From Dehalococcoidia bacterium (lineage in GTDB: Bacteria > Chloroflexota > Dehalococcoidia > Lucifugimonadales > UBA3495), in contig OY763072.1 in NCBI GenBank assembly GCA_963666865.1, positions 2,647,356 through 2,711,355 of the forward strand: a stretch of DNA of 64,000 bases, in the 5' to 3' direction. This document shows positions 20,742 through 42,066 of the stretch, piece by piece. The notes beneath the pieces are model-generated. The model had not been told where the DNA came from. It saw only the letters and a program-made list of their open reading frames with translations, and made no database searches. Every line of letters starts with the position of its first letter. Within the stretch, counting starts at the first letter, position 1. Made by a program: the position numbers and the translations under genes.

Positions 20742-21173
20742 TCAACCCTCCACCATATCCGCAATGTCCCGGAACGCGTCCAGGAGCGCGGACTGTATGG
20801 ATTCTGCGTCATCATCGACCTCTTCGTCTTCTACAACCACGTACCCGGAATCGTCTTCATCGATGCCGACTCGCACCTCAATTTCCACCGGCTCACCGTC
20901 GTGCCAGAAAAGAACATAGACGATTTCGTCCACATCCTCTTCTTCCGACAGATCCTCCTCATCAAATTCATAATGCCAGGAACGATTGATAATCAATCGG
21001 GCGCCGCCATCCAGCAGCACGTCATTCATCTGGTTGAGCAATCCGTCCACTGCCAATCGACCGGCGAACCGCTCCAGCAGGGTACGCCGCTCCGCAACTT
21101 CGGTTATGCGGCGGCCATAACCTTCGTTGTCCACGCGCACCCGCAGTCGATTCAACTCATCCAGCCAGGGCAT
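20742..21173 (-). CDS. hypothetical acidic protein
   Basis: 143 aa from ATG 21173 (GGAGGAAG upstream). Very Asp/Glu-rich C-terminal half. No recognisable motif. Confidence 0.5.
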   Translation of the reverse strand: MPWLDELNRLRVRVDNEGYGRRITEVAERRTLLERFAGRLAVDGLLNQMNDVLLDGGARLIINRSWHYEFDEEDLSEEEDVDEIVYVLFWHDGEPVEIEVRVGIDEDDSGYVVVEDEEVDDDAESIQSALLDAFRDIADMVEG

Positions 21174-21205
21174 TGGTACTTCCTCCGGTATCGCCGGGCG
21201 CAACT

Positions 21206-21811
21206 TTATCGCGCCCGGGGTTTCCGATTGCGCCCGTTAAAGTAGCAGAACTCATCGACGGTGCGAAAGTCAGGAACGTGCAACCTCCGAGCCAAATTGC
21301 CTAGGATGTCCAGGAGATCGATGTAGCACAATCCGGGATGTCCCTGGCTGAACCCGGCCGGCAGCATTCCCAGCCGCCGCAGCGCCCGCTCAGTGTGAGG
21401 ACTCCAGGGAGCGAACAACGTCGGATCGCGCAAGGCCAGCAGGTACGAAGGCCATTCTTTGCCAGCGCCGCTCAATCCGAAACCGCCGGTTGCGACGGCG
21501 CACTCTTCGAAACGATTTTCCAACTTGATGACGTCGTAGAGCAAGAAATCCACGGTCTCGCGGATATCCTCAATTGGATTGGCGCGGAACTTTGAAACTT
21601 GCCGGCCGCCGGCGCCCCGGTACAGGATAACGGCTTGATCTTCGGTCAATTCAGGCAGCGCGTCTTGCTCCAGCCAGGCTTGCCACTCATCCGCCCGGCT
21701 CCAGCGACGCCGGCGGAATGCGTCCAATTCCCCTGACGCCCCAGCGGCGTGATATGCCTCCACCAGAGCCGGCCAATCGGGTTCTGTAACGGCGATGCGG
21801 GCGGCGATCAT
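21206..21811 (-). CDS. hypothetical protein, distantly related by eye to the 38727 / 39776 duplicated domain
   Basis: 201 aa. Shares the motifs SYLLALRDPTLFAPW (compare LSLLNPALFVMW) and TVDEFCYF (compare FIDEYNWL). Confidence 0.5.
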   Translation of the reverse strand: MIAARIAVTEPDWPALVEAYHAAGASGELDAFRRRRWSRADEWQAWLEQDALPELTEDQAVILYRGAGGRQVSKFRANPIEDIRETVDFLLYDVIKLENRFEECAVATGGFGLSGAGKEWPSYLLALRDPTLFAPWSPHTERALRRLGMLPAGFSQGHPGLCYIDLLDILGNLARRLHVPDFRTVDEFCYFNGRNRKPRAR

Positions 21812-36881: not shown

Positions 36882-37811
36882 ATGTCGCCCCACGTCACCC
36901 TTATCGCTGTCGTAGGCCCCACTGCGGTGGGCAAGACCGCCCTGGCCATTCAACTCGCCCAGAGTTTTAGCGGCGAAATCGTCAACGCCGATAGCCGACA
37001 GGTTTATATCGGCATGGACATCGGAACCGCCAAGCCCACTGCGGACGAACTTTGCGCCGCCCGTCACCACCTCATCAACATTCGCAAACCCGATACCCCG
37101 CTCAGCTTGGGGGAATATCTGCCCTTGGCCCGGGAATGTGTGGAGGAAATTTCCGCCCGAGGACAACTTCCCATCCTGTGCGGCGGCACGGGCCAGTACG
37201 TATGGGCGGTGTTGGAAGGTTGGGATGTTCCCGAGATACCGCCCGACACTGATTTTCGAGCTCGGCTCGAACAACGTGCCTCCGCTGACGGAACGAGGTC
37301 TCTCTGGAACGAATTGAACGCCGTCGATCCCAAGCGCGCTGTTTCCATCGGGCCGCACAACACCCGCCGCATCATCCGCGCTCTGGAGATCCTTCACTCC
37401 GCCGGAGAACAGGTAAGCGCCGCTCGACGGAGCGCGGAGCCGCCCTACCGTGCTCTCATCATCGGCTTGACCGCTGAACGTGCGGATCTTTACCGGCGGG
37501 TTGACGAAAGATTCGACATGATGATGTCGCAAGGCCTGCTGGACGAAGCCCGCCGCTTGGCGGTTGCGGGTTATGAGCTGGGCTGTGGACCGTTGTCCGG
37601 GGTCGGCTACACTCAGTTGGGACAATATCTTGCCGGCGAAATGACTCTGCCCGATGCCGTCGCCCGCGCCAAGACCCAAACCCACCGTCTGGTGCGTCGC
37701 CAATACACGTGGTTCAAGCCGTCCGACCGACGCATCAAGTGGCTGGACGCCACCCACGAACTGCCGATTGCGGAAGCCACCCGCCGCGTGGAGCGCTTTC
37801 TGGAGCCCTGA
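36882..37811 (+). CDS. miaA: tRNA dimethylallyltransferase
   Basis: IAVVGPTAVGKTALAIQLA...IVNADSRQVY...IPILCGGTGQY. Confidence 0.9.
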   Translation: MSPHVTLIAVVGPTAVGKTALAIQLAQSFSGEIVNADSRQVYIGMDIGTAKPTADELCAARHHLINIRKPDTPLSLGEYLPLARECVEEISARGQLPILCGGTGQYVWAVLEGWDVPEIPPDTDFRARLEQRASADGTRSLWNELNAVDPKRAVSIGPHNTRRIIRALEILHSAGEQVSAARRSAEPPYRALIIGLTAERADLYRRVDERFDMMMSQGLLDEARRLAVAGYELGCGPLSGVGYTQLGQYLAGEMTLPDAVARAKTQTHRLVRRQYTWFKPSDRRIKWLDATHELPIAEATRRVERFLEP

Positions 37812-37872
37812 AACGGGTGTGGTACAATTCCGGGCTATAGGCCACGAGCCAATTCGGCGCAGGAGTCCCGCG

Positions 37873-38730
37873 ATGGAATTCACCAAAATGCACGGCGCTG
37901 GCAACGATTACGTGTATATCGACGCCCGAACGATGCCCGACCGTGATTGGGGTAGCCTGTCCCGAGCCATCAGCGACCGGCATTTCGGCGTCGGCGGCGA
38001 TGGTCTGATCCTGGTGATGGATTCCGATGTAGCGGATCTCCAGATGCGGATGTTCAATTCCGACGGTTCCGAAGGAGAAATGTGTGGCAACGGCATACGC
38101 TGCTTCGCCAAATACGCTATCGAGCGGGGGATCGTATCGCCATCAGCCCAGCAGGTCACAGTGGACACCCTGGCCGGCGTGCGCACGGTGGTGCCCCATT
38201 ACGATGGCGCCGCAGTCCATGCCGCGCGGGTGAGCATGGGAGCTCCGCACCTGGTGCCGGCGGATATCCCTGTTGATTTGGACCCTGCCATTAGCAACCG
38301 GCAAGGGCCCATTCTCAACTACGCCGTCCATCCCGGTGACTTCCGCCTGTTTCTCACCTTCGTGTCCATGGGGAACCCCCACGCCGTGACCTTTATCGAT
38401 CAACCGGTGGAGGAGTTTCCCCTGCACAATATCGGGCCGTTGGTGGAGCGGCATCCCATCTTCCCCCGCCGGGTCAACTTTGAAATCGTGAACCTGCGCG
38501 ACGACGGCCACCTGGACGCTCGGGTCTGGGAGCGCGGCTCCGGCGAGACCATGGCCTGCGGGACCGGTGCCTGTGCCATCGGCGTGGCCGCGCGCCTTTT
38601 GGGGCACACCGGAGACCGGGTAGCGGTTAACCTGCCCGGCGGTACGCTAAACATCGAATGGGACGGCGAGGGCGAAGTTTATCTCGAAGGCCCGGCAGCC
38701 GAAGTTTTCAGCGGAGTGTGGACAGAATGA
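37873..38730 (+). CDS. dapF: diaminopimelate epimerase
   Basis: MEFTKMHGAGNDYVYID...GEMCGNGIRC...ETMACGTGACA. Start ATG 37873. Confidence 0.9.
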   Translation: MEFTKMHGAGNDYVYIDARTMPDRDWGSLSRAISDRHFGVGGDGLILVMDSDVADLQMRMFNSDGSEGEMCGNGIRCFAKYAIERGIVSPSAQQVTVDTLAGVRTVVPHYDGAAVHAARVSMGAPHLVPADIPVDLDPAISNRQGPILNYAVHPGDFRLFLTFVSMGNPHAVTFIDQPVEEFPLHNIGPLVERHPIFPRRVNFEIVNLRDDGHLDARVWERGSGETMACGTGACAIGVAARLLGHTGDRVAVNLPGGTLNIEWDGEGEVYLEGPAAEVFSGVWTE

Positions 38731-39407
38731 GCAACTACGTAACCGGCCCGACCACTTTTGAGCAGATCCGCTGGTCAGCGACGACCTTCCGCCGCGAGAC
38801 CAGCGACGACGCAGACTACATCCCCCTGTACACGTCTGAATTTCGCCAGTCCCTCCTCGAAAAGCAGGGCGCCGACAGCGTGGAGCGGCTGCTGCGTTTC
38901 GTCAACAAGTGGGGTTTCCGAGTATCCTATGACAAAGCTCCCGGCATAGCATTGGCTATCGCCCAGGCTGCCCCGCATCTCAAGCCGTTATCTGGGTCCG
39001 CGCTGGAATTCGACGACCTGCGCTGCGCCACCCTGGACATCATCGAGCGAGCCTACGACAGCATCGCAGCGGCAGACGGCGTCGGGCCGTCATCAACATC
39101 GTTGACTCTGTCCCTGTTGAACCCGGCCCTCTTCGTGATGTGGAACACGCAGATACGCAACGCCTACTTCCCCAACGACCCGCCCAACGGCGCCACCTAC
39201 GCTCAGTTCCTCACCATAATGCGCATGGCCGCCCTGTCGATAACCGCCGACGCTCGTAGCCAGCACGGTATGGACGACCCTGCCGGCGTGCTGTCTGCTG
39301 ACTTGGGTATTGAACCGCCGTTCAGCCTCGCCAAGTTCATCGACGAATACAACTGGCTTACGCTGGAGCGGGGTATGGCCTGCCAAAGCGACGCGGTTGC
39401 GGTTTAG
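38727..39407 (+). CDS. hypothetical protein (stand-alone copy of the duplicated unknown domain)
   Basis: 226 aa. ATG overlaps the dapF stop (ATGA). Paralogous by eye to residues about 120-364 of 39776-40870. Confidence 0.6.
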   Translation: MSNYVTGPTTFEQIRWSATTFRRETSDDADYIPLYTSEFRQSLLEKQGADSVERLLRFVNKWGFRVSYDKAPGIALAIAQAAPHLKPLSGSALEFDDLRCATLDIIERAYDSIAAADGVGPSSTSLTLSLLNPALFVMWNTQIRNAYFPNDPPNGATYAQFLTIMRMAALSITADARSQHGMDDPAGVLSADLGIEPPFSLAKFIDEYNWLTLERGMACQSDAVAV

Positions 39408-39416
39408 GGATTCACA

Positions 39417-39779
39417 ATGCCTTGGGAGGTTGAATTCACTGATGAGTTCAACCAGTGATGGCATACCCTCACCTTGCCGGAACAGCGCGCCCTGGGTTCC
39501 CGAATCGGCCGGCTCAGGGTCTATGGCGTCGCGCTGTCGAGAAAATATTCAAAACGAGTTCGTGTCGGGAATGGGTTAGAGATGCACGAATTAAGGGCGC
39601 AATGCGAAGGGCGTCCGTTGCGCGCGCTCTACGCATTTGACCCGCGAATGGCGGCCATAGTCCTGCTAGGCGGCGACAAAACCGGAGACAGCGATTTTTA
39701 CCCTCGCAACATACCTAGGGCGTATGACCTCTATGACGCGCATATCGCACGTTTGGAAAGGGAGGGGTTAATCCAATGA
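39417..39779 (+). pseudogene. RelE/HigB (Gp49-like) toxin with in-frame TGA at codon 14
   Basis: MPWEVEFTDEFNQ-TGA-WHTLT...MHELRAQCEGRPLRALYAFDPRMAAIVLLGGDKTG. The TGA at 39456-39458 is in the same frame as ORF 39474-39779. Confidence 0.7.
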
Positions 39780-40870
39780 GCGGGCTGCATAAATTTGAAG
39801 AACTAACCGCCCACTTCACCCCGGAAGACTGGGAGCGCATGGCGGAGCTGGAGGCCGAGATCGACGCCACCATGCCTCCAGACGAATCCTGCGCCCTGAT
39901 GCCGCTGCGGATGATGCGGGAGCATGAGGACGCTCCCCTGTCCGAATATGCGGCGGAGCTACATACCGACGAGGCCGGCGTCCGCGCTTTTGAAGAATGC
40001 GATGACGCACCGGTGTCGCAAATCGCTGCATACATCAAGGCCATGGGCGGCCGCCTGAAAGTCGTCGCCGAGTTCCCCGGCGGCGATGAGGTCATCATCG
40101 CCAACTTCTACCGCAAACGGCGCTGGTCCATCCGTGCCAACGACCTCCTTTTCGGAGAATTGTACTTTGAGGTGGACACCGCCACCGGCCCCACAACCTA
40201 CCGCCAGATTGAATGGGCGGCGCAAGCCTACCGGCAGTACGGAGAGGGGCGCAAATACGATACTGCCTATGGCCAGATTTATACCGACGAGTTCCGCGAT
40301 GCCTTGCTCAACGGCGCCCCGGAATCTGCCATAAAGCGGCTGCTCAGCTTTCTAAATCAAATAAACGCCGATTTGCCTACCGAAACGCTGCTGCCCGTCC
40401 TGCTAACCTCGGTGCCGGATGCCGTCGCCACCCTGCGGCATCTGGCCTTCGCTACGCTGTATGATGTTGAGGGGGATGGCTTGAGCGATTGGGACAGTGC
40501 GTTGTCAACGCGGGCCGCTGATCGATTGACGGCGGACGACGGCATTGAATTTGCGCTGGCGTCGCAAATTCTCAGTGTCGTGAACCCGGCGCTGTTCCTA
40601 CCATGGGATTTGGCGACACACGAGCACTTTTTCCCCAAGAACGATCTAGATGACGGGTTCGCCGCCGTTCGCTACACCCGGTTCATCTGGAAAATGGCCG
40701 ATGCCGCCAGAGCCATCCGCAAGGATGCCCTCGCCAACCACGAAATTGAAGACCCAGCAGCTCAGCTGTCGGCAACGTTGGACATCACACCGCCCTACAC
40801 CCTGGCCAAGTTTATTGATGAGTACAATTTCCTCACCATCACTAAAGGTGAGATCCATCCCGGCCCCTAG
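39776..40870 (+). CDS. XRE-type antitoxin domain fused to the duplicated unknown domain
   Basis: N-terminal FEELTAHFTPED...LMPLRMMRE...VSQIAAYIKAMGGRLKVVAEFPGG is the typical HigA-like partner of Gp49-type toxins. The start overlaps the toxin stop (ATGA). The C-terminal 250 aa are paralogous to 38727. Confidence 0.65.
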   Translation: MSGLHKFEELTAHFTPEDWERMAELEAEIDATMPPDESCALMPLRMMREHEDAPLSEYAAELHTDEAGVRAFEECDDAPVSQIAAYIKAMGGRLKVVAEFPGGDEVIIANFYRKRRWSIRANDLLFGELYFEVDTATGPTTYRQIEWAAQAYRQYGEGRKYDTAYGQIYTDEFRDALLNGAPESAIKRLLSFLNQINADLPTETLLPVLLTSVPDAVATLRHLAFATLYDVEGDGLSDWDSALSTRAADRLTADDGIEFALASQILSVVNPALFLPWDLATHEHFFPKNDLDDGFAAVRYTRFIWKMADAARAIRKDALANHEIEDPAAQLSATLDITPPYTLAKFIDEYNFLTITKGEIHPGP

Positions 40871-40887
40871 CAGCCCCAGGAGCAAAA

Positions 40888-42066
40888 ATGCCCACCTTCT
40901 CCCAACGCCTCGGCAAACTCGCCCCCTACCCCTTCGTCGAAATCTCCCGCATCATCGCCGAAAAGCGTGCCGCCGGCGCCGACGTGGTCACCTTCGGCAT
41001 CGGCGACCCGGACATTCCCACGCCGCAGCCCATCATCGACCGTTTGCTCACGGCCTCCCAGGACCCGCCGAACCATCGCTACCCGGAGACCGATGGCCTG
41101 CCGGAGATGCGCCGCGCCATCGCCCAATGGTACAAGCAGCGCTTCGACGTTGACCTGGACCCGGACACCGAGGTGCTTCCCCTCATCGGCGCCAAAGAAG
41201 GCATCGGCCACGCCGCCTTCTGCTTCCTGGACCCCGGCGACATCGCCCTGGTCCCCGATCCTGCTTATCCGGTGTACGCCGTGGGCACCATGTTCGCCGG
41301 CGCCGAGAGCTACGTCATGCCCCTCTACCAGCGCAACGGCTGGCTCCCGGAGTACGACGCCATACCGGATGACGTGGCCCGCGCCGCCAAGGTAATGTGG
41401 CTCAACTACCCCAACAATCCCACCAGCGCCGTCGCGTCCCAGGAAGACCTGGAATCGGCCCTGCGTTACTGTCGGGAGCACGACATCGCCATGCTCCACG
41501 ACGCCGCCTACTCTGAAGTCGGCTACGATGGCTACCGCGCCGGCAGCATGATGCAACTTGATGGGGCCAAAGAGGTCGGCCTGGAGTTCCACTCCCTGTC
41601 CAAGACCTACAACATGACCGGATGGCGCATGGGCATGGCCGTGGGCAACGCCGACATGATCAAAGCGCTGTTCCAGATCAAGGCCAACCTGGACTCCGGC
41701 ATCCCGCAGGCGATCCAGGAAATGTCTATGGAGGCGCTGACCGGCCCACAGGACTGTATTGACCACAACGTCGCCATCTACCAGTGGCGCCGCGACCGGG
41801 TACTCCAGGCATTGACCCGCATGGGCCTGAACGTGGAAACGCCCCGCGCCAGTCTGTACATCTGGGCGCCCGTTCCCGAAGGTTTCACCTCCGCCGATTT
41901 CGCCGCCCGCCTGCTGGAAGAGATCGACATCGTGGTCACCCCCGGTTCCTCCTACGGCCAGTATGGCGAAGGCTACATCCGCCTGTCCCTAACCACTCCC
42001 GACGAGCGGGTGGAGACAGGTTGTCAGCGCCTGGAAAACTGGACCATCCCCGCGCCGCGCGCCTAG
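40888..42066 (+). CDS. dapL: LL-diaminopimelate aminotransferase
   Basis: LAPYPFVEISRIIAEKRAAGADVVTFGIGDPDIPTP...NHRYPETDGL...LIGAKEGIGH...SLSKTYNMTGWR. Confidence 0.85.
   Translation: MPTFSQRLGKLAPYPFVEISRIIAEKRAAGADVVTFGIGDPDIPTPQPIIDRLLTASQDPPNHRYPETDGLPEMRRAIAQWYKQRFDVDLDPDTEVLPLIGAKEGIGHAAFCFLDPGDIALVPDPAYPVYAVGTMFAGAESYVMPLYQRNGWLPEYDAIPDDVARAAKVMWLNYPNNPTSAVASQEDLESALRYCREHDIAMLHDAAYSEVGYDGYRAGSMMQLDGAKEVGLEFHSLSKTYNMTGWRMGMAVGNADMIKALFQIKANLDSGIPQAIQEMSMEALTGPQDCIDHNVAIYQWRRDRVLQALTRMGLNVETPRASLYIWAPVPEGFTSADFAARLLEEIDIVVTPGSSYGQYGEGYIRLSLTTPDERVETGCQRLENWTIPAPRA

What the first reader, a model, noticed from the sequence alone, without database searches (positions are those of the whole stretch)
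38727..40870. Three-gene insert between dapF and dapL: duplicated unknown domain flanking a RelE-like toxin, with one copy fused to the antitoxin
DapL makes LL-DAP and DapF epimerises it, so these are consecutive steps, yet a 2.1-kb insert separates the genes.
- Gene 1 (226 aa) starts on the dapF stop (ATGA).
- Gene 2 is a Gp49/RelE-type toxin.
- Gene 3 starts on the toxin stop (ATGA). Its first 115 aa or so are the cognate XRE/HigA-like antitoxin (...SQIAAYIKAMGGRLKVVAEFPGG). Its remaining 250 aa are a clear paralogue of gene 1.

Paired segments (gene 1 / gene 3): TGPTTFEQIRWSATTFRR / TGPTTYRQIEWAAQAYRQ; LYTSEFRQSLLEK / IYTDEFRDALLNG; LSLLNPALFVMWN / LSVVNPALFLPWD; PPFSLAKFIDEYNWLTLERG / PPYTLAKFIDEYNFLTITKG.

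I cannot assign this domain to a known family. An antitoxin covalently linked to a domain that is also encoded free next door suggests a three-component or sensor-coupled toxin-antitoxin or defence module. A third distant member may be 21206-21811.
Basis: partly seen in the sequence, partly recalled or inferred. Interest (0 to 1): 0.65.

Follow-up and report, generated by a model that had tools for sequence, protein, structure and literature searches.

The report
Toxin-antitoxin cassette with borrowed neighbour domain
Between two lysine-pathway genes of an uncultured Dehalococcoidia bacterium lies an optional toxin-antitoxin cassette whose antitoxin is fused to an old copy of the uncharacterised gene next door; the fusion is real and recurrent, but the toxin is broken here and the neighbour gene is a fixed resident, not part of the cassette.

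Summary
The sequence observation holds. Gene 1 (38727-39407) starts on the dapF stop. Gene 2 (39417-39779) is a Gp49/HigB2-type toxin with an in-frame TGA at codon 14. Gene 3 (39776-40870) starts on the toxin stop. It combines a HigA2-like N-terminus with a roughly 230-aa domain paralogous to gene 1 (37% identity, E 3e-39).

The fusion is not an artefact. 45 protein clusters keep it full-length, and every part is under purifying selection.

The "three-gene insert" reading is only partly right:
- Gene 1 follows dapF in all 45 related Dehalococcoidia species genomes, and 28 of them carry no toxin there.
- The variable unit is the toxin plus fused antitoxin, present in 16 of 45, always at this one site and with mosaic, recombinant histories.
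- Short forms join the 35-aa N-terminal peptide directly to the domain, with no XRE domain.

The domain is a distant sister of Pfam DUF6308 and carries a helix-hairpin-helix core. Its wider family has about 1450 cluster representatives, stands alone, and shows no toxin linkage in 87 metagenome loci. That family keeps a near-invariant Lys and Asp. The fused copies keep the Asp; gene 1 has lost both residues.

The proposed third member at 21206-21811 is not supported.

Verdict: an undescribed variant of a HigBA-type module, with moderate interest.

The parts
37873..38730 (+). dapF (diaminopimelate epimerase). Upstream anchor; its TGA stop overlaps the gene 1 ATG.
   Evidence: TIGR00652, 271 bits against a cut-off of 114.65. 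Sequence read.
38727..39407 (+). Gene 1: a free 226-aa all-alpha protein related to DUF6308, with a helix-hairpin-helix core. It is fixed in the lineage and translationally coupled to dapF. It lacks the family's signature Lys and Asp (Asn140 at 39144-39146 replaces the Asp).
   Evidence: - No Pfam, NCBIfam or PADLOC hit.
- 126 homologue clusters.
- Present after dapF in all 47 related loci.
- AF2 model pLDDT 84.6.
- Lys in 0 of 48 and Asp in 3 of 48 gene 1 sequences (47 orthologues plus the window).
- dN/dS 0.13-0.21.
39417..39779 (+). Gene 2: a Gp49/HigB2 (RelE-superfamily) toxin, interrupted by an in-frame TGA at 39456-39458 (codon 14, Trp in orthologues). Probably a recent pseudogene.
   Evidence: - Translation.
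- PF05973, E 1.6e-12.
- Intact orthologues in L001, L002 and L003.
- dN/dS 0.12 against L003.
39776..39880 (+). Gene 3 residues 1-35: N-terminal helical peptide, the presumed toxin-neutralising segment. It is shared with the short fusions that lack the XRE domain.
   Evidence: - Alignment A2.
- tblastn of residues 1-35 gives 49% identity to the short fusions.
- Short-fusion sequences.
- Functional precedent in V. cholerae HigA2 (PMC5416850).
39881..40111 (+). Gene 3 residues 36-112: HigA2-like XRE helix-turn-helix domain plus beta-hairpin. It is unusually acidic (net charge -10).
   Evidence: - Foldseek to 7ewc: probability 1.0, TMt 0.70-0.78.
- HigA3 6lty at E 0.05.
- Charge calculation.
- No Pfam HTH hit.
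40112..40183 (+). Gene 3 residues 113-136: low-confidence linker that begins within the invariant Y-x-K-R-R-W patch (Y112-W117).
   Evidence: pLDDT below 50 for residues 109-130. Invariant Y112, R115, R116 and W117 in alignment A2.
40184..40870 (+). Gene 3 residues 137-364 plus stop: DUF6308-related domain, the paralogue of gene 1. It keeps the signature Asp (D278, 40607-40609). The signature Lys is Gln here.
   Evidence: - BLASTP E 3e-39.
- Asp in 11 of 11 and Lys in 5 of 11 long-form fusions.
- Model pLDDT 84-97 across the domain.
40888..42066 (+). dapL (LL-diaminopimelate aminotransferase). Downstream anchor.
   Evidence: NF006756, 577 bits against a cut-off of 507.

Best explanation
Window 39417-40870 is a toxin-first (hig-type) type II toxin-antitoxin cassette. 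It sits between a lineage-fixed gene (gene 1) and dapL, inside a long housekeeping operon (tpiA-miaA-dapF-gene1-...-dapL-hflX).

Components
- The toxin is a Gp49/HigB2-family, RelE-like mRNA interferase.
- The antitoxin has three parts: a roughly 35-aa N-terminal helical peptide, an acidic HigA2-like XRE domain, and a roughly 230-aa all-alpha domain.
- That C-terminal domain is an ancient paralogue of gene 1 and a distant sister of Pfam DUF6308.

Inferred mechanism
- The N-terminal peptide folds onto the toxin and neutralises it, as in V. cholerae HigA2.
- The DUF6308-like domain has taken over the structured dimerisation or partner-binding role that the helix-turn-helix domain normally plays. 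Sister cassettes at the same site join the peptide directly to this domain and have dropped the XRE domain altogether.
- Expression comes from operon read-through with translational coupling (ATGA overlaps), not from an autoregulated promoter.

Evolution and status
- Gene 1 is a separate, degenerate paralogue that has lost the family's Lys and Asp. It is present whether or not the cassette is.
- The cassette is optional. It is confined to this one site and is exchanged between related genomes by recombination.
- In this window the toxin carries a recent nonsense codon. The module is probably no longer a working toxin-antitoxin pair, and a still-constrained antitoxin fusion is left behind.
For: Shown by tool results
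- Toxin family and gene order.
- HigA2-like fold of gene 3 residues about 42-111.
- Paralogy of gene 1 and the gene 3 C-terminus.
- Fusion conserved in 45 clusters.
- Gene 1 present in 45 of 45 species loci. The cassette is present in 16 of 45, always between gene 1 and dapL. Independent contigs agree.
- Short fusions consist of the peptide plus the domain, with no XRE.
- Paralogue clades are old, and the cassette phylogeny and dS values disagree with gene 1 and the flanks. Example, window against L025: dS is 1.54 for gene 1 and 3.2 for the toxin, but 0.66 for the fused domain.
- dN/dS is 0.05-0.33 for every part.
- No promoter-like or terminator-like site on the coding strand in 37600-41200.
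- Lys/Asp pattern: wider family 73 of 74 for each residue; short fusions 9 of 10 and 10 of 10; long fusions Lys 5 of 11, Asp 11 of 11; gene 1 Lys 0 of 48, Asp 3 of 48.

From the literature
- The V. cholerae HigA2 N-terminal disordered segment neutralises HigB2, and its C-terminal helix-turn-helix domain dimerises and binds DNA (PMC5416850).
Against: - No test of binding or neutralisation was possible. No multimer prediction was available.
- The role assigned to the C-terminal domain is inference from architecture only.
- The domain is acidic (net charge -14 for the fused copy, -9 for gene 1). This argues against simple DNA binding.
- The strict co-location with a paralogue is not explained by a pure scaffold role.
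- The toxin nonsense codon could be an assembly error.
- Loci were recovered through gene 1 itself. Relatives lacking gene 1 would not have been found.
Confidence: 0.6

Rival explanations
1. Three-component or paralogue-coupled system. Free gene 1 and the fused copy interact, for example as a heterodimer or by competing for one ligand, so that the state of gene 1 or of its ligand controls release of the toxin.
For: - Every cassette found sits immediately after gene 1.
- The antitoxin always carries a paralogue of gene 1.
- Gene 1 and toxin identities to the window track each other across loci: 93/93, 89/91, 67/63 and 58/57 %.
Against: - 28 of 45 species keep gene 1 without any toxin.
- The paralogues are only about 35-40% identical and diverged long ago.
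- Gene 1 has lost the Lys and Asp that the fused copies retain.
- The co-variation between gene 1 and the toxin can be explained by recombination block structure.
Confidence: 0.15
2. The domain is an enzyme of the HhH-GPD DNA-glycosylase type, with the conserved Asp (and Lys) at the active site. The fused antitoxin would then couple recognition of damaged or modified (phage) DNA to toxin release. Gene 1 would be a catalytically dead derivative.
For: - Weak Pfam HHH hits in 7 of 85 and 2 of 74 members.
- Local pattern helix, G-h-G hairpin, helix, Pro-containing loop, Asp, helix. The Asp lies 20 residues after the hairpin Gly, the same spacing as Gly118 to Asp138 in E. coli endonuclease III (model secondary structure, motif; the Nth numbering is from my own knowledge).
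- MutY, EndoIII, Ogg and MagIII dominate the top of the Foldseek list.
- One relative is fused to DUF6884.
Against: - All those Foldseek hits are non-significant: E 0.4-3, probability at most 0.23, TM-score at most 0.38.
- hhalign of the family profile against E. coli Nth gives probability 0.2.
- Profile searches of PDB sequences find no glycosylase.
- The proteins are acidic.
- The conserved Lys is not at the endonuclease III catalytic Lys position.
Confidence: 0.15
3. Evolutionary debris. A toxin-antitoxin pair landed beside a tandem duplicate of gene 1, the antitoxin stop codon was lost, and the fusion has no function of its own.
For: - Free extra copies of the domain exist at the same site (L003 8205-8888, L006 8200-8898, L021 6708-), and they group with the fused clades.
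- The toxin is broken in the window, in L011 and in L044.
Against: - The fusion is kept full-length in 45 clusters down to 51% identity, with many invariant residues in both halves.
- dN/dS is 0.17-0.33 for the fused domain.
- A second, independent architecture (peptide plus domain) also retains the domain.
Confidence: 0.1

Closest known systems
HigB2-HigA2 of Vibrio cholerae, and HigBA2/HigBA3 of Mycobacterium tuberculosis (Gp49/RelE-type toxin with an XRE antitoxin)
   Same: - Toxin gene first, with overlapping stop and start codons.
- Toxin in Pfam Gp49.
- Antitoxin with an N-terminal segment followed by an XRE helix-turn-helix domain that superposes on Mtb HigA2 (PMC5416850).
   Different: - The antitoxin carries an extra roughly 230-aa DUF6308-like domain.
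- The XRE domain is very acidic, is missed by Pfam HTH models, and is absent altogether in sister cassettes.
- No promoter of its own is evident.
- The cassette is confined to one chromosomal site next to a paralogue.
- The toxin is truncated in this window.
Tripartite toxin-antitoxin-chaperone (TAC) systems, for example M. tuberculosis HigB1-HigA1-SecB-like chaperone (from my own knowledge)
   Same: A hig-type pair plus a third adjacent gene, with a C-terminal extension on the antitoxin.
   Different: - The third gene here is not SecB-like.
- It lies upstream.
- It is a paralogue of the antitoxin extension, not a chaperone for it.
- It is conserved in 28 of 45 species that have no toxin.
Pfam DUF6308 (PF19827), an uncharacterised family
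   Same: The central helix-hairpin-helix core aligns to profile positions about 64-162 of 193. 17 of 85 close relatives and 26 of 74 distant relatives score E 1e-5 to 1e-3.
   Different: - Gene 1 and gene 3 themselves score nothing at E up to 1.
- In the 8 relatives whose bit scores were read, DUF6308 hits scored 18.8-27.9 bits against a cut-off of 27.3; only the 254-aa short fusion of L001 passes.
- The N- and C-terminal thirds, including the LAKFIDEYNW motif, are not covered.
- No paper mentions DUF6308 or PF19827.
Modular or 'hyperpromiscuous' antitoxin domains, such as Panacea/DUF4065 antitoxins (from my own knowledge)
   Same: A non-HTH globular domain is attached to, or replaces, the classical antitoxin DNA-binding domain.
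   Different: - This domain is linked to a single toxin family at a single locus in one lineage.
- Its wider family is not linked to toxins.

Membership tests
Gp49/HigB2 (RelE superfamily) toxin | Sequence match to Pfam PF05973 above the gathering score | tested here: met
   47.7 bits against a cut-off of 23.9, E 1.6e-12, with the TGA read as Trp.
Gp49/HigB2 (RelE superfamily) toxin | Intact open reading frame | tested here: not met
   - In-frame TGA at codon 14 (39456-39458).
- Orthologues have TGG.
- TGA is used as a stop by dapF and by gene 2 itself.
Gp49/HigB2 (RelE superfamily) toxin | Ribosome-dependent mRNA cleavage and toxicity | not testable with these tools
   Needs expression assays.
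HigA2-type XRE antitoxin | Encoded directly downstream of the toxin and translationally coupled to it | tested here: met
   ATGA overlap at 39776-39779. Same arrangement in 18 other loci.
HigA2-type XRE antitoxin | XRE helix-turn-helix fold | tested here: met
   - Foldseek to 7ewc: probability 1.0, TMt 0.70-0.78, rmsd 2.1-2.6 A.
- The sequence signal is weak: HigA3 at E 0.05 and no Pfam HTH hit.
HigA2-type XRE antitoxin | Operator DNA binding and autoregulation | not testable with these tools
   Indirect signs against it: the domain has net charge -10 and the helix 2-3 region -6, and no promoter-like site lies on the coding strand.
HigA2-type XRE antitoxin | N-terminal segment binds and neutralises the toxin | not testable with these tools
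   Inferred from V. cholerae HigA2 (PMC5416850) and from retention of the 35-aa peptide in XRE-less fusions.
Pfam DUF6308 (PF19827) | Score at or above the gathering threshold (27.3 bits) | tested here: not met
   No hit for gene 1 or gene 3. In the 8 relatives whose bit scores were read, DUF6308 hits scored 18.8-27.9 bits and covered only the central core.
HhH-GPD DNA glycosylase superfamily | Helix-hairpin-helix followed by a Gly/Pro loop and a catalytic Asp | tested here: inconclusive
   - The motif and the 20-residue spacing are present in gene 3 (D278) and in the wider family. Gene 1 lacks the Asp (N140).
- Pfam HHH hits are weak.
HhH-GPD DNA glycosylase superfamily | Global fold or profile similarity to known members | tested here: not met
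   - Foldseek best E 0.4, TM-score at most 0.38.
- hhalign against E. coli Nth, probability 0.2.
- PDB profile searches negative.
Tripartite TAC (toxin-antitoxin-SecB chaperone) | SecB-like chaperone as the third gene | tested here: not met
   Gene 1 is all-alpha, has no Pfam hit including SecB, and is a paralogue of the antitoxin C-domain.
Known anti-phage defence systems (PADLOC) | Match to a PADLOC component model | tested here: not met
   - No hit for gene 1 or gene 3.
- The toxin hits NsnC only at E 0.0026.
- In the wider family, 1 of 74 members matches PDC-M57A; which part of that protein matches was not checked.

The most novel reading that the evidence does not exclude
The DUF6308-like fold is a previously unrecognised helix-hairpin-helix enzyme or ligand-binding family. 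In the antitoxin fusion it acts as an integrated sensor or bait. Binding of its substrate (damaged or modified DNA) or of a phage factor aimed at the housekeeping paralogue gene 1 would free the HigB-type toxin. That would make this a paralogue-guarding abortive-infection module fixed at one chromosomal site.
Probability: 0.12. Interest if true: 0.75.

Novelty: new variant of a known kind. Interest (0 to 1): 0.45.

Why it matters
Antitoxins are modular, but here the classical DNA-binding domain is being replaced by an uncharacterised fold, and the replacement can be seen at three stages:
- a 128-aa cluster representative (P0173) carrying only the peptide and XRE domain; its completeness and genomic context were not checked;
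- XRE plus the domain;
- the domain alone, joined to the neutralising peptide.

All the fused forms examined sit at a single site beside an ancient free paralogue. This gives three things:
- a first functional handle on the DUF6308-related family, which has about 1450 cluster representatives and no literature;
- a natural series of constructs for asking what the structured half of an antitoxin actually needs to do;
- an example of a toxin-antitoxin cassette that spreads by recombination between conserved housekeeping flanks, not on a mobile element.

The practical weight is limited. The organisms are uncultured, and the toxin in this window is broken.

Tried and rejected
- **Sequencing artefact or missed stop for the fusion.** Rejected: 45 full-length clusters, and invariant residues on both sides of the junction.
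- **Third family member at 21206-21811.** Rejected by the profile HMMs.
- **Recent local duplication of gene 1 as the origin of the fused domain.** Rejected: separate, deep clades.
- **General association of the domain with toxins.** Rejected: 0 of 87 wider-family loci have a Gp49-like toxin or a HigA-like N-terminus within 4 kb, and no neighbour family recurs in more than 4 loci. Six individual contexts were inspected. Five were unrelated. The sixth (L052) is a distant orthologue in the same dapF-X-dapL synteny, without a toxin.
- **Direct assignment to a known family.** Pfam, NCBIfam and PADLOC gave nothing for gene 1 or gene 3. PDB sequence searches were negative. Foldseek against PDB and BFVD gave no significant hit for the domain. 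hhalign against E. coli Nth was negative.
- **Literature.** Searches for DUF6308, PF19827 and for HhH-antitoxin fusions found nothing relevant.
- **TGA recoding.** Rejected: TGA terminates dapF and gene 2 in the same window.
- **Operator-like inverted repeat upstream of the toxin.** Only a weak repeat inside the toxin's own 5' end.
- **Look-up of the window's own gene 3 product.** It returned no contig, so the source assembly was not identified.
Full report
**1. What is in the sequence**

The ORF list and the raw sequence show five genes in a row on the + strand.
- dapF ends at 38730.
- Gene 1 runs 38727-39407 (226 aa). Its ATG lies inside the ATGA that holds the dapF stop.
- Gene 2 runs 39417-39779.
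- Gene 3 runs 39776-40870 (364 aa). Its ATG lies inside the ATGA that holds the gene 2 stop.
- An aminotransferase gene runs 40888-42066.

NCBIfam confirms DapF (TIGR00652, 271 bits) and LL-diaminopimelate aminotransferase (NF006756, 577 bits against a cut-off of 507).

Gene 2 translates to MPWEVEFTDEFNQ*WHTL..., with an in-frame TGA at codon 14. Read as Trp, the product matches Pfam Gp49 PF05973 (47.7 bits, cut-off 23.9). TGA is a true stop in this genome, because it ends both dapF and gene 2.

BLASTP of gene 1 against gene 3 aligns gene 1 residues 6-216 with gene 3 residues 137-358 at 37% identity, E 3e-39.

The suggested third member (21206-21811) is a 201-aa ORF on the minus strand. It shares only a roughly 30-residue motif with the family (E 0.004-0.01). 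Family HMMs do not detect it above noise.

**2. The antitoxin half of gene 3**

No Pfam, NCBIfam or PADLOC model matches gene 3. The AlphaFold2 model has mean pLDDT 78 and shows:
- a helix over residues 16-31;
- a four-helix unit followed by a beta-hairpin over residues 44-111;
- a disordered linker over residues 109-130;
- a confident all-alpha domain from residue 137.

Foldseek places residues about 42-111 on M. tuberculosis HigA2 (7ewc) with probability 1.0, TMt 0.70-0.78 and rmsd 2.1-2.6 A. phmmer finds HigA3 (6lty) at E 0.05, aligned over ...YVAALGGHLRIVAEF.

This XRE domain is strongly acidic: net charge -10 over 77 residues, and -6 over helices 2-3. That is unusual for an operator-binding helix-turn-helix.

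**3. The fusion is real and recurrent**

A search of 5.8 billion proteins returns 45 clusters that cover gene 3 end to end at 51-100% identity. Their alignment has invariant residues throughout, including the junction (Y112, R115, R116, W117, P139, W147).

Gene 1 has 126 clusters, named only as hypothetical proteins of Dehalococcoidia or Chloroflexi MAGs.

**4. Genomic context in relatives**

A scan of one genome per GTDB species found 45 loci. All but one are labelled Dehalococcoidia, Chloroflexota or SAR202 MAGs; the exception, a 4-kb contig, is labelled Candidatus Tectimicrobiota.

tblastn mapping shows the order miaA, dapF, gene 1..., dapL, hflX in all of them where the contig reaches (two loci end before dapL or miaA). 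In 44 of 45, gene 1 starts at the dapF stop. The content between gene 1 and dapL varies:
- 28 loci have only gene 1 between dapF and dapL, with a spacer of 60-135 nt between gene 1 and dapL.
- 16 loci have a Gp49 toxin plus a fused antitoxin.
- 1 locus (L021) has gene 1 followed by a second free copy, and then the contig ends.

Independent metagenome contigs show the same arrangement.

Three architectures follow the toxin or sit at this site:
- **Long form** (360-380 aa): peptide + XRE + domain, as in the window. Found in 9 species.
- **Short form** (250-262 aa): the 35-aa peptide MxGRHKWSDLKxxMTPExxxR...AT.PP joined directly to the start of the domain, with no XRE. Found in 8 species; L005, like L001, carries both forms in tandem.
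- **Extra free copies** of the domain, in L003, L006 and L021.

The toxin is intact in most loci. It is disrupted in the window (nonsense codon), in L011 (fragmentary) and in L044 (frameshift).

The closest relatives differ in cassette content. L003 and L005 have the cassette; L004 and L007 do not.

**5. Evolutionary history**

A neighbour-joining tree of all copies of the domain separates four groups as old clades: gene 1 orthologues, long-form domains, short-form domains and the free extra copies. The free extra copies lie next to the fused clades.

The cassette phylogeny disagrees with the gene 1 phylogeny. L001 and L005 share near-identical cassettes although their gene 1 copies are far apart in the tree (67% and 89% identical to the window's). 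The fused domain of L025 groups with the window, although gene 1 of L025 is only 58% identical to the window's.

Synonymous divergence is mosaic. For the window against L025, dS is 1.54 for gene 1, 3.2 for the toxin, 0.66 for the fused domain and 0.84 for dapL.

dN/dS is 0.13-0.21 for gene 1, 0.12-0.22 for the toxin, 0.05-0.24 for the antitoxin N-terminus and 0.17-0.33 for the fused domain. All parts are therefore constrained, and the nonsense codon in the window is recent.

The cassette's 3' end runs into the conserved dapL ribosome-binding region, and the cassette replaces the short spacer seen in cassette-free genomes. No promoter-like or terminator-like site lies on the coding strand across 37600-41200.

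My inference is that the cassette is expressed by operon read-through and spreads by homologous recombination between the highly conserved flanks.

**6. What the duplicated domain is**

The gene 1 model is confident (pLDDT 84.6, pTM 0.84) and consists of 11 helices.

An exhaustive profile search of 1.84 billion cluster representatives finds 1450 relatives at E <= 1e-3 and 284 at E <= 1e-10. Most are free-standing proteins of 210-260 aa.

Pfam DUF6308 (PF19827) is hit weakly by 17 of 85 close and 26 of 74 distant members. In the 8 relatives whose bit scores were read, the hits scored 18.8-27.9 bits against a cut-off of 27.3 and covered only the central core. A few members hit the HHH motif model. 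The family is therefore a distant sister of DUF6308. No paper mentions that family.

The wider family has a near-invariant signature, G-P-T-x-A-S-K-I-L-x-x-L-N-P-x-L-F-V-M-W-D. The signature Lys and Asp are distributed as follows:

| Group | Lys | Asp |
|---|---|---|
| Wider family | 73 of 74 | 73 of 74 |
| Short fusions | 9 of 10 | 10 of 10 |
| Long fusions | 5 of 11 (Gln in the window) | 11 of 11 |
| Gene 1 clade | 0 of 48 | 3 of 48 (Asn140 in the window) |

The local pattern is helix, G-h-G hairpin, helix, Pro loop, Asp, helix. The Asp lies 20 residues after the hairpin Gly. This resembles the HhH-GPD signature of endonuclease III (my own knowledge of Nth G118 and D138).

Global evidence for that relationship fails:
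- The top Foldseek hits are MutY, EndoIII, Ogg and MagIII, but at E 0.4-3 and TM-score at most 0.38.
- hhalign against Nth gives probability 0.2.
- PDB profile searches and BFVD are negative.
- The proteins are acidic.

I treat the glycosylase-like reading as a rival, not a result.

**7. Is the toxin link general?**

No. In 87 loci of the wider family from metagenomes, no ORF within 4 kb matches a toxin HMM built from 16 cassette toxins or the HigA-like N-terminus. No neighbour family recurs in more than 4 loci.

Six individual contexts were inspected:
- Five were unrelated to one another.
- The sixth (L052) is a more distant orthologue, again between dapF and dapL and without a toxin.

Caveats: many of the metagenome contigs are short, and the toxin HMM is narrow.

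**8. Interpretation**

The variable unit is a HigBA-type cassette with an unusual antitoxin. By analogy with V. cholerae HigA2, I infer that the conserved 35-aa peptide neutralises the toxin. In HigA2 the disordered N-terminal segment neutralises HigB2, and the C-terminal helix-turn-helix domain dimerises and binds DNA (PMC5416850).

I also infer that the DUF6308-like domain has taken the place of the helix-turn-helix as the structured half. Two observations support this: the XRE domain is dispensable in the short forms, and it is acidic in the long forms.

Gene 1 is a fixed, degenerate paralogue that does not depend on the cassette. Why the cassette always carries a paralogue of its fixed neighbour is unexplained. 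Possible reasons:
- **Historical accident:** insertion next to a tandem duplicate followed by loss of a stop codon, consistent with the free extra copies.
- **Functional coupling** with gene 1.
- **A sensor or bait role** for the fused domain.

**9. Verdict**

This is an undescribed variant of a known kind of system, restricted to one uncultured lineage, and its toxin is inactivated in this window. Interest is moderate.

Noticed in passing
L001 481-3099 and 9428-10003; L135 1357-2093 and 6963-7538; L054 1861-2433: In relatives, the same housekeeping operon (pgk-pgm-tpiA-miaA-dapF-...-dapL-hflX) is interrupted at other gene junctions by other toxin-antitoxin-type genes: PIN between tpiA and miaA, Uma2 between dapL and hflX, and SocA_Panacea upstream. 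The operon seems to be a landing strip for such cassettes. The window has none at those junctions.
   Followed up: partly
window 20745-21203 (-) and 21209-21811 (-): A 201-aa ORF with a helix-hairpin-helix-like motif (G.SGAGKEWPSYLLALRDPTLFAPW) is followed by a very acidic 153-aa ORF, downstream of purD. Neither has a Pfam or NCBIfam family. They are not members of the gene 1 family by profile search.
   Followed up: partly
P0181 (388 aa) and P0185: In other organisms a relative of the domain is fused C-terminally to DUF6884 (PF21818, E 5e-38), which also gives a weak YaaA-like hit. This is a second, unrelated fusion partner for the fold.
   Followed up: no
window 40868-40887, compared with L002, L008, L013, L025, L135 and L136: In most relatives the fused antitoxin reads on through the dapL ribosome-binding site (tails such as ...AQEHHA or ...PQPPRSKNA) and overlaps the dapL start by 8 nt. 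In the window an earlier TAG (Gln codon CAG in L025) ends gene 3 17 nt before dapL.
   Followed up: partly
L054 2484-4454: A distant family member lies directly upstream of an aspartokinase gene (AA_kinase plus ACT domains) and after a GHMP kinase and a Uma2 gene. This is another aspartate/lysine-pathway neighbourhood and may be coincidence.
   Followed up: no
L100 2122-3438, also L060, L096, L105: Four wider-family loci share a 439-aa neighbour whose sequence looks Cas1-like to me. No family search was run on it.
   Followed up: no
L010 (JAKZSW010000082.1, 4090 bp): A contig carrying the typical dapF-gene1-toxin-short fusion-dapL arrangement is labelled Candidatus Tectimicrobiota. Every other locus is Dehalococcoidia or Chloroflexota, so this is probably a binning error.
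   Followed up: no
P0162 (350 aa, PF00155): One database protein joins a gene 1-like N-terminus to an aminotransferase domain. It is probably a gene-calling or frameshift artefact across the gene 1-dapL junction in a cassette-free genome.
   Followed up: no
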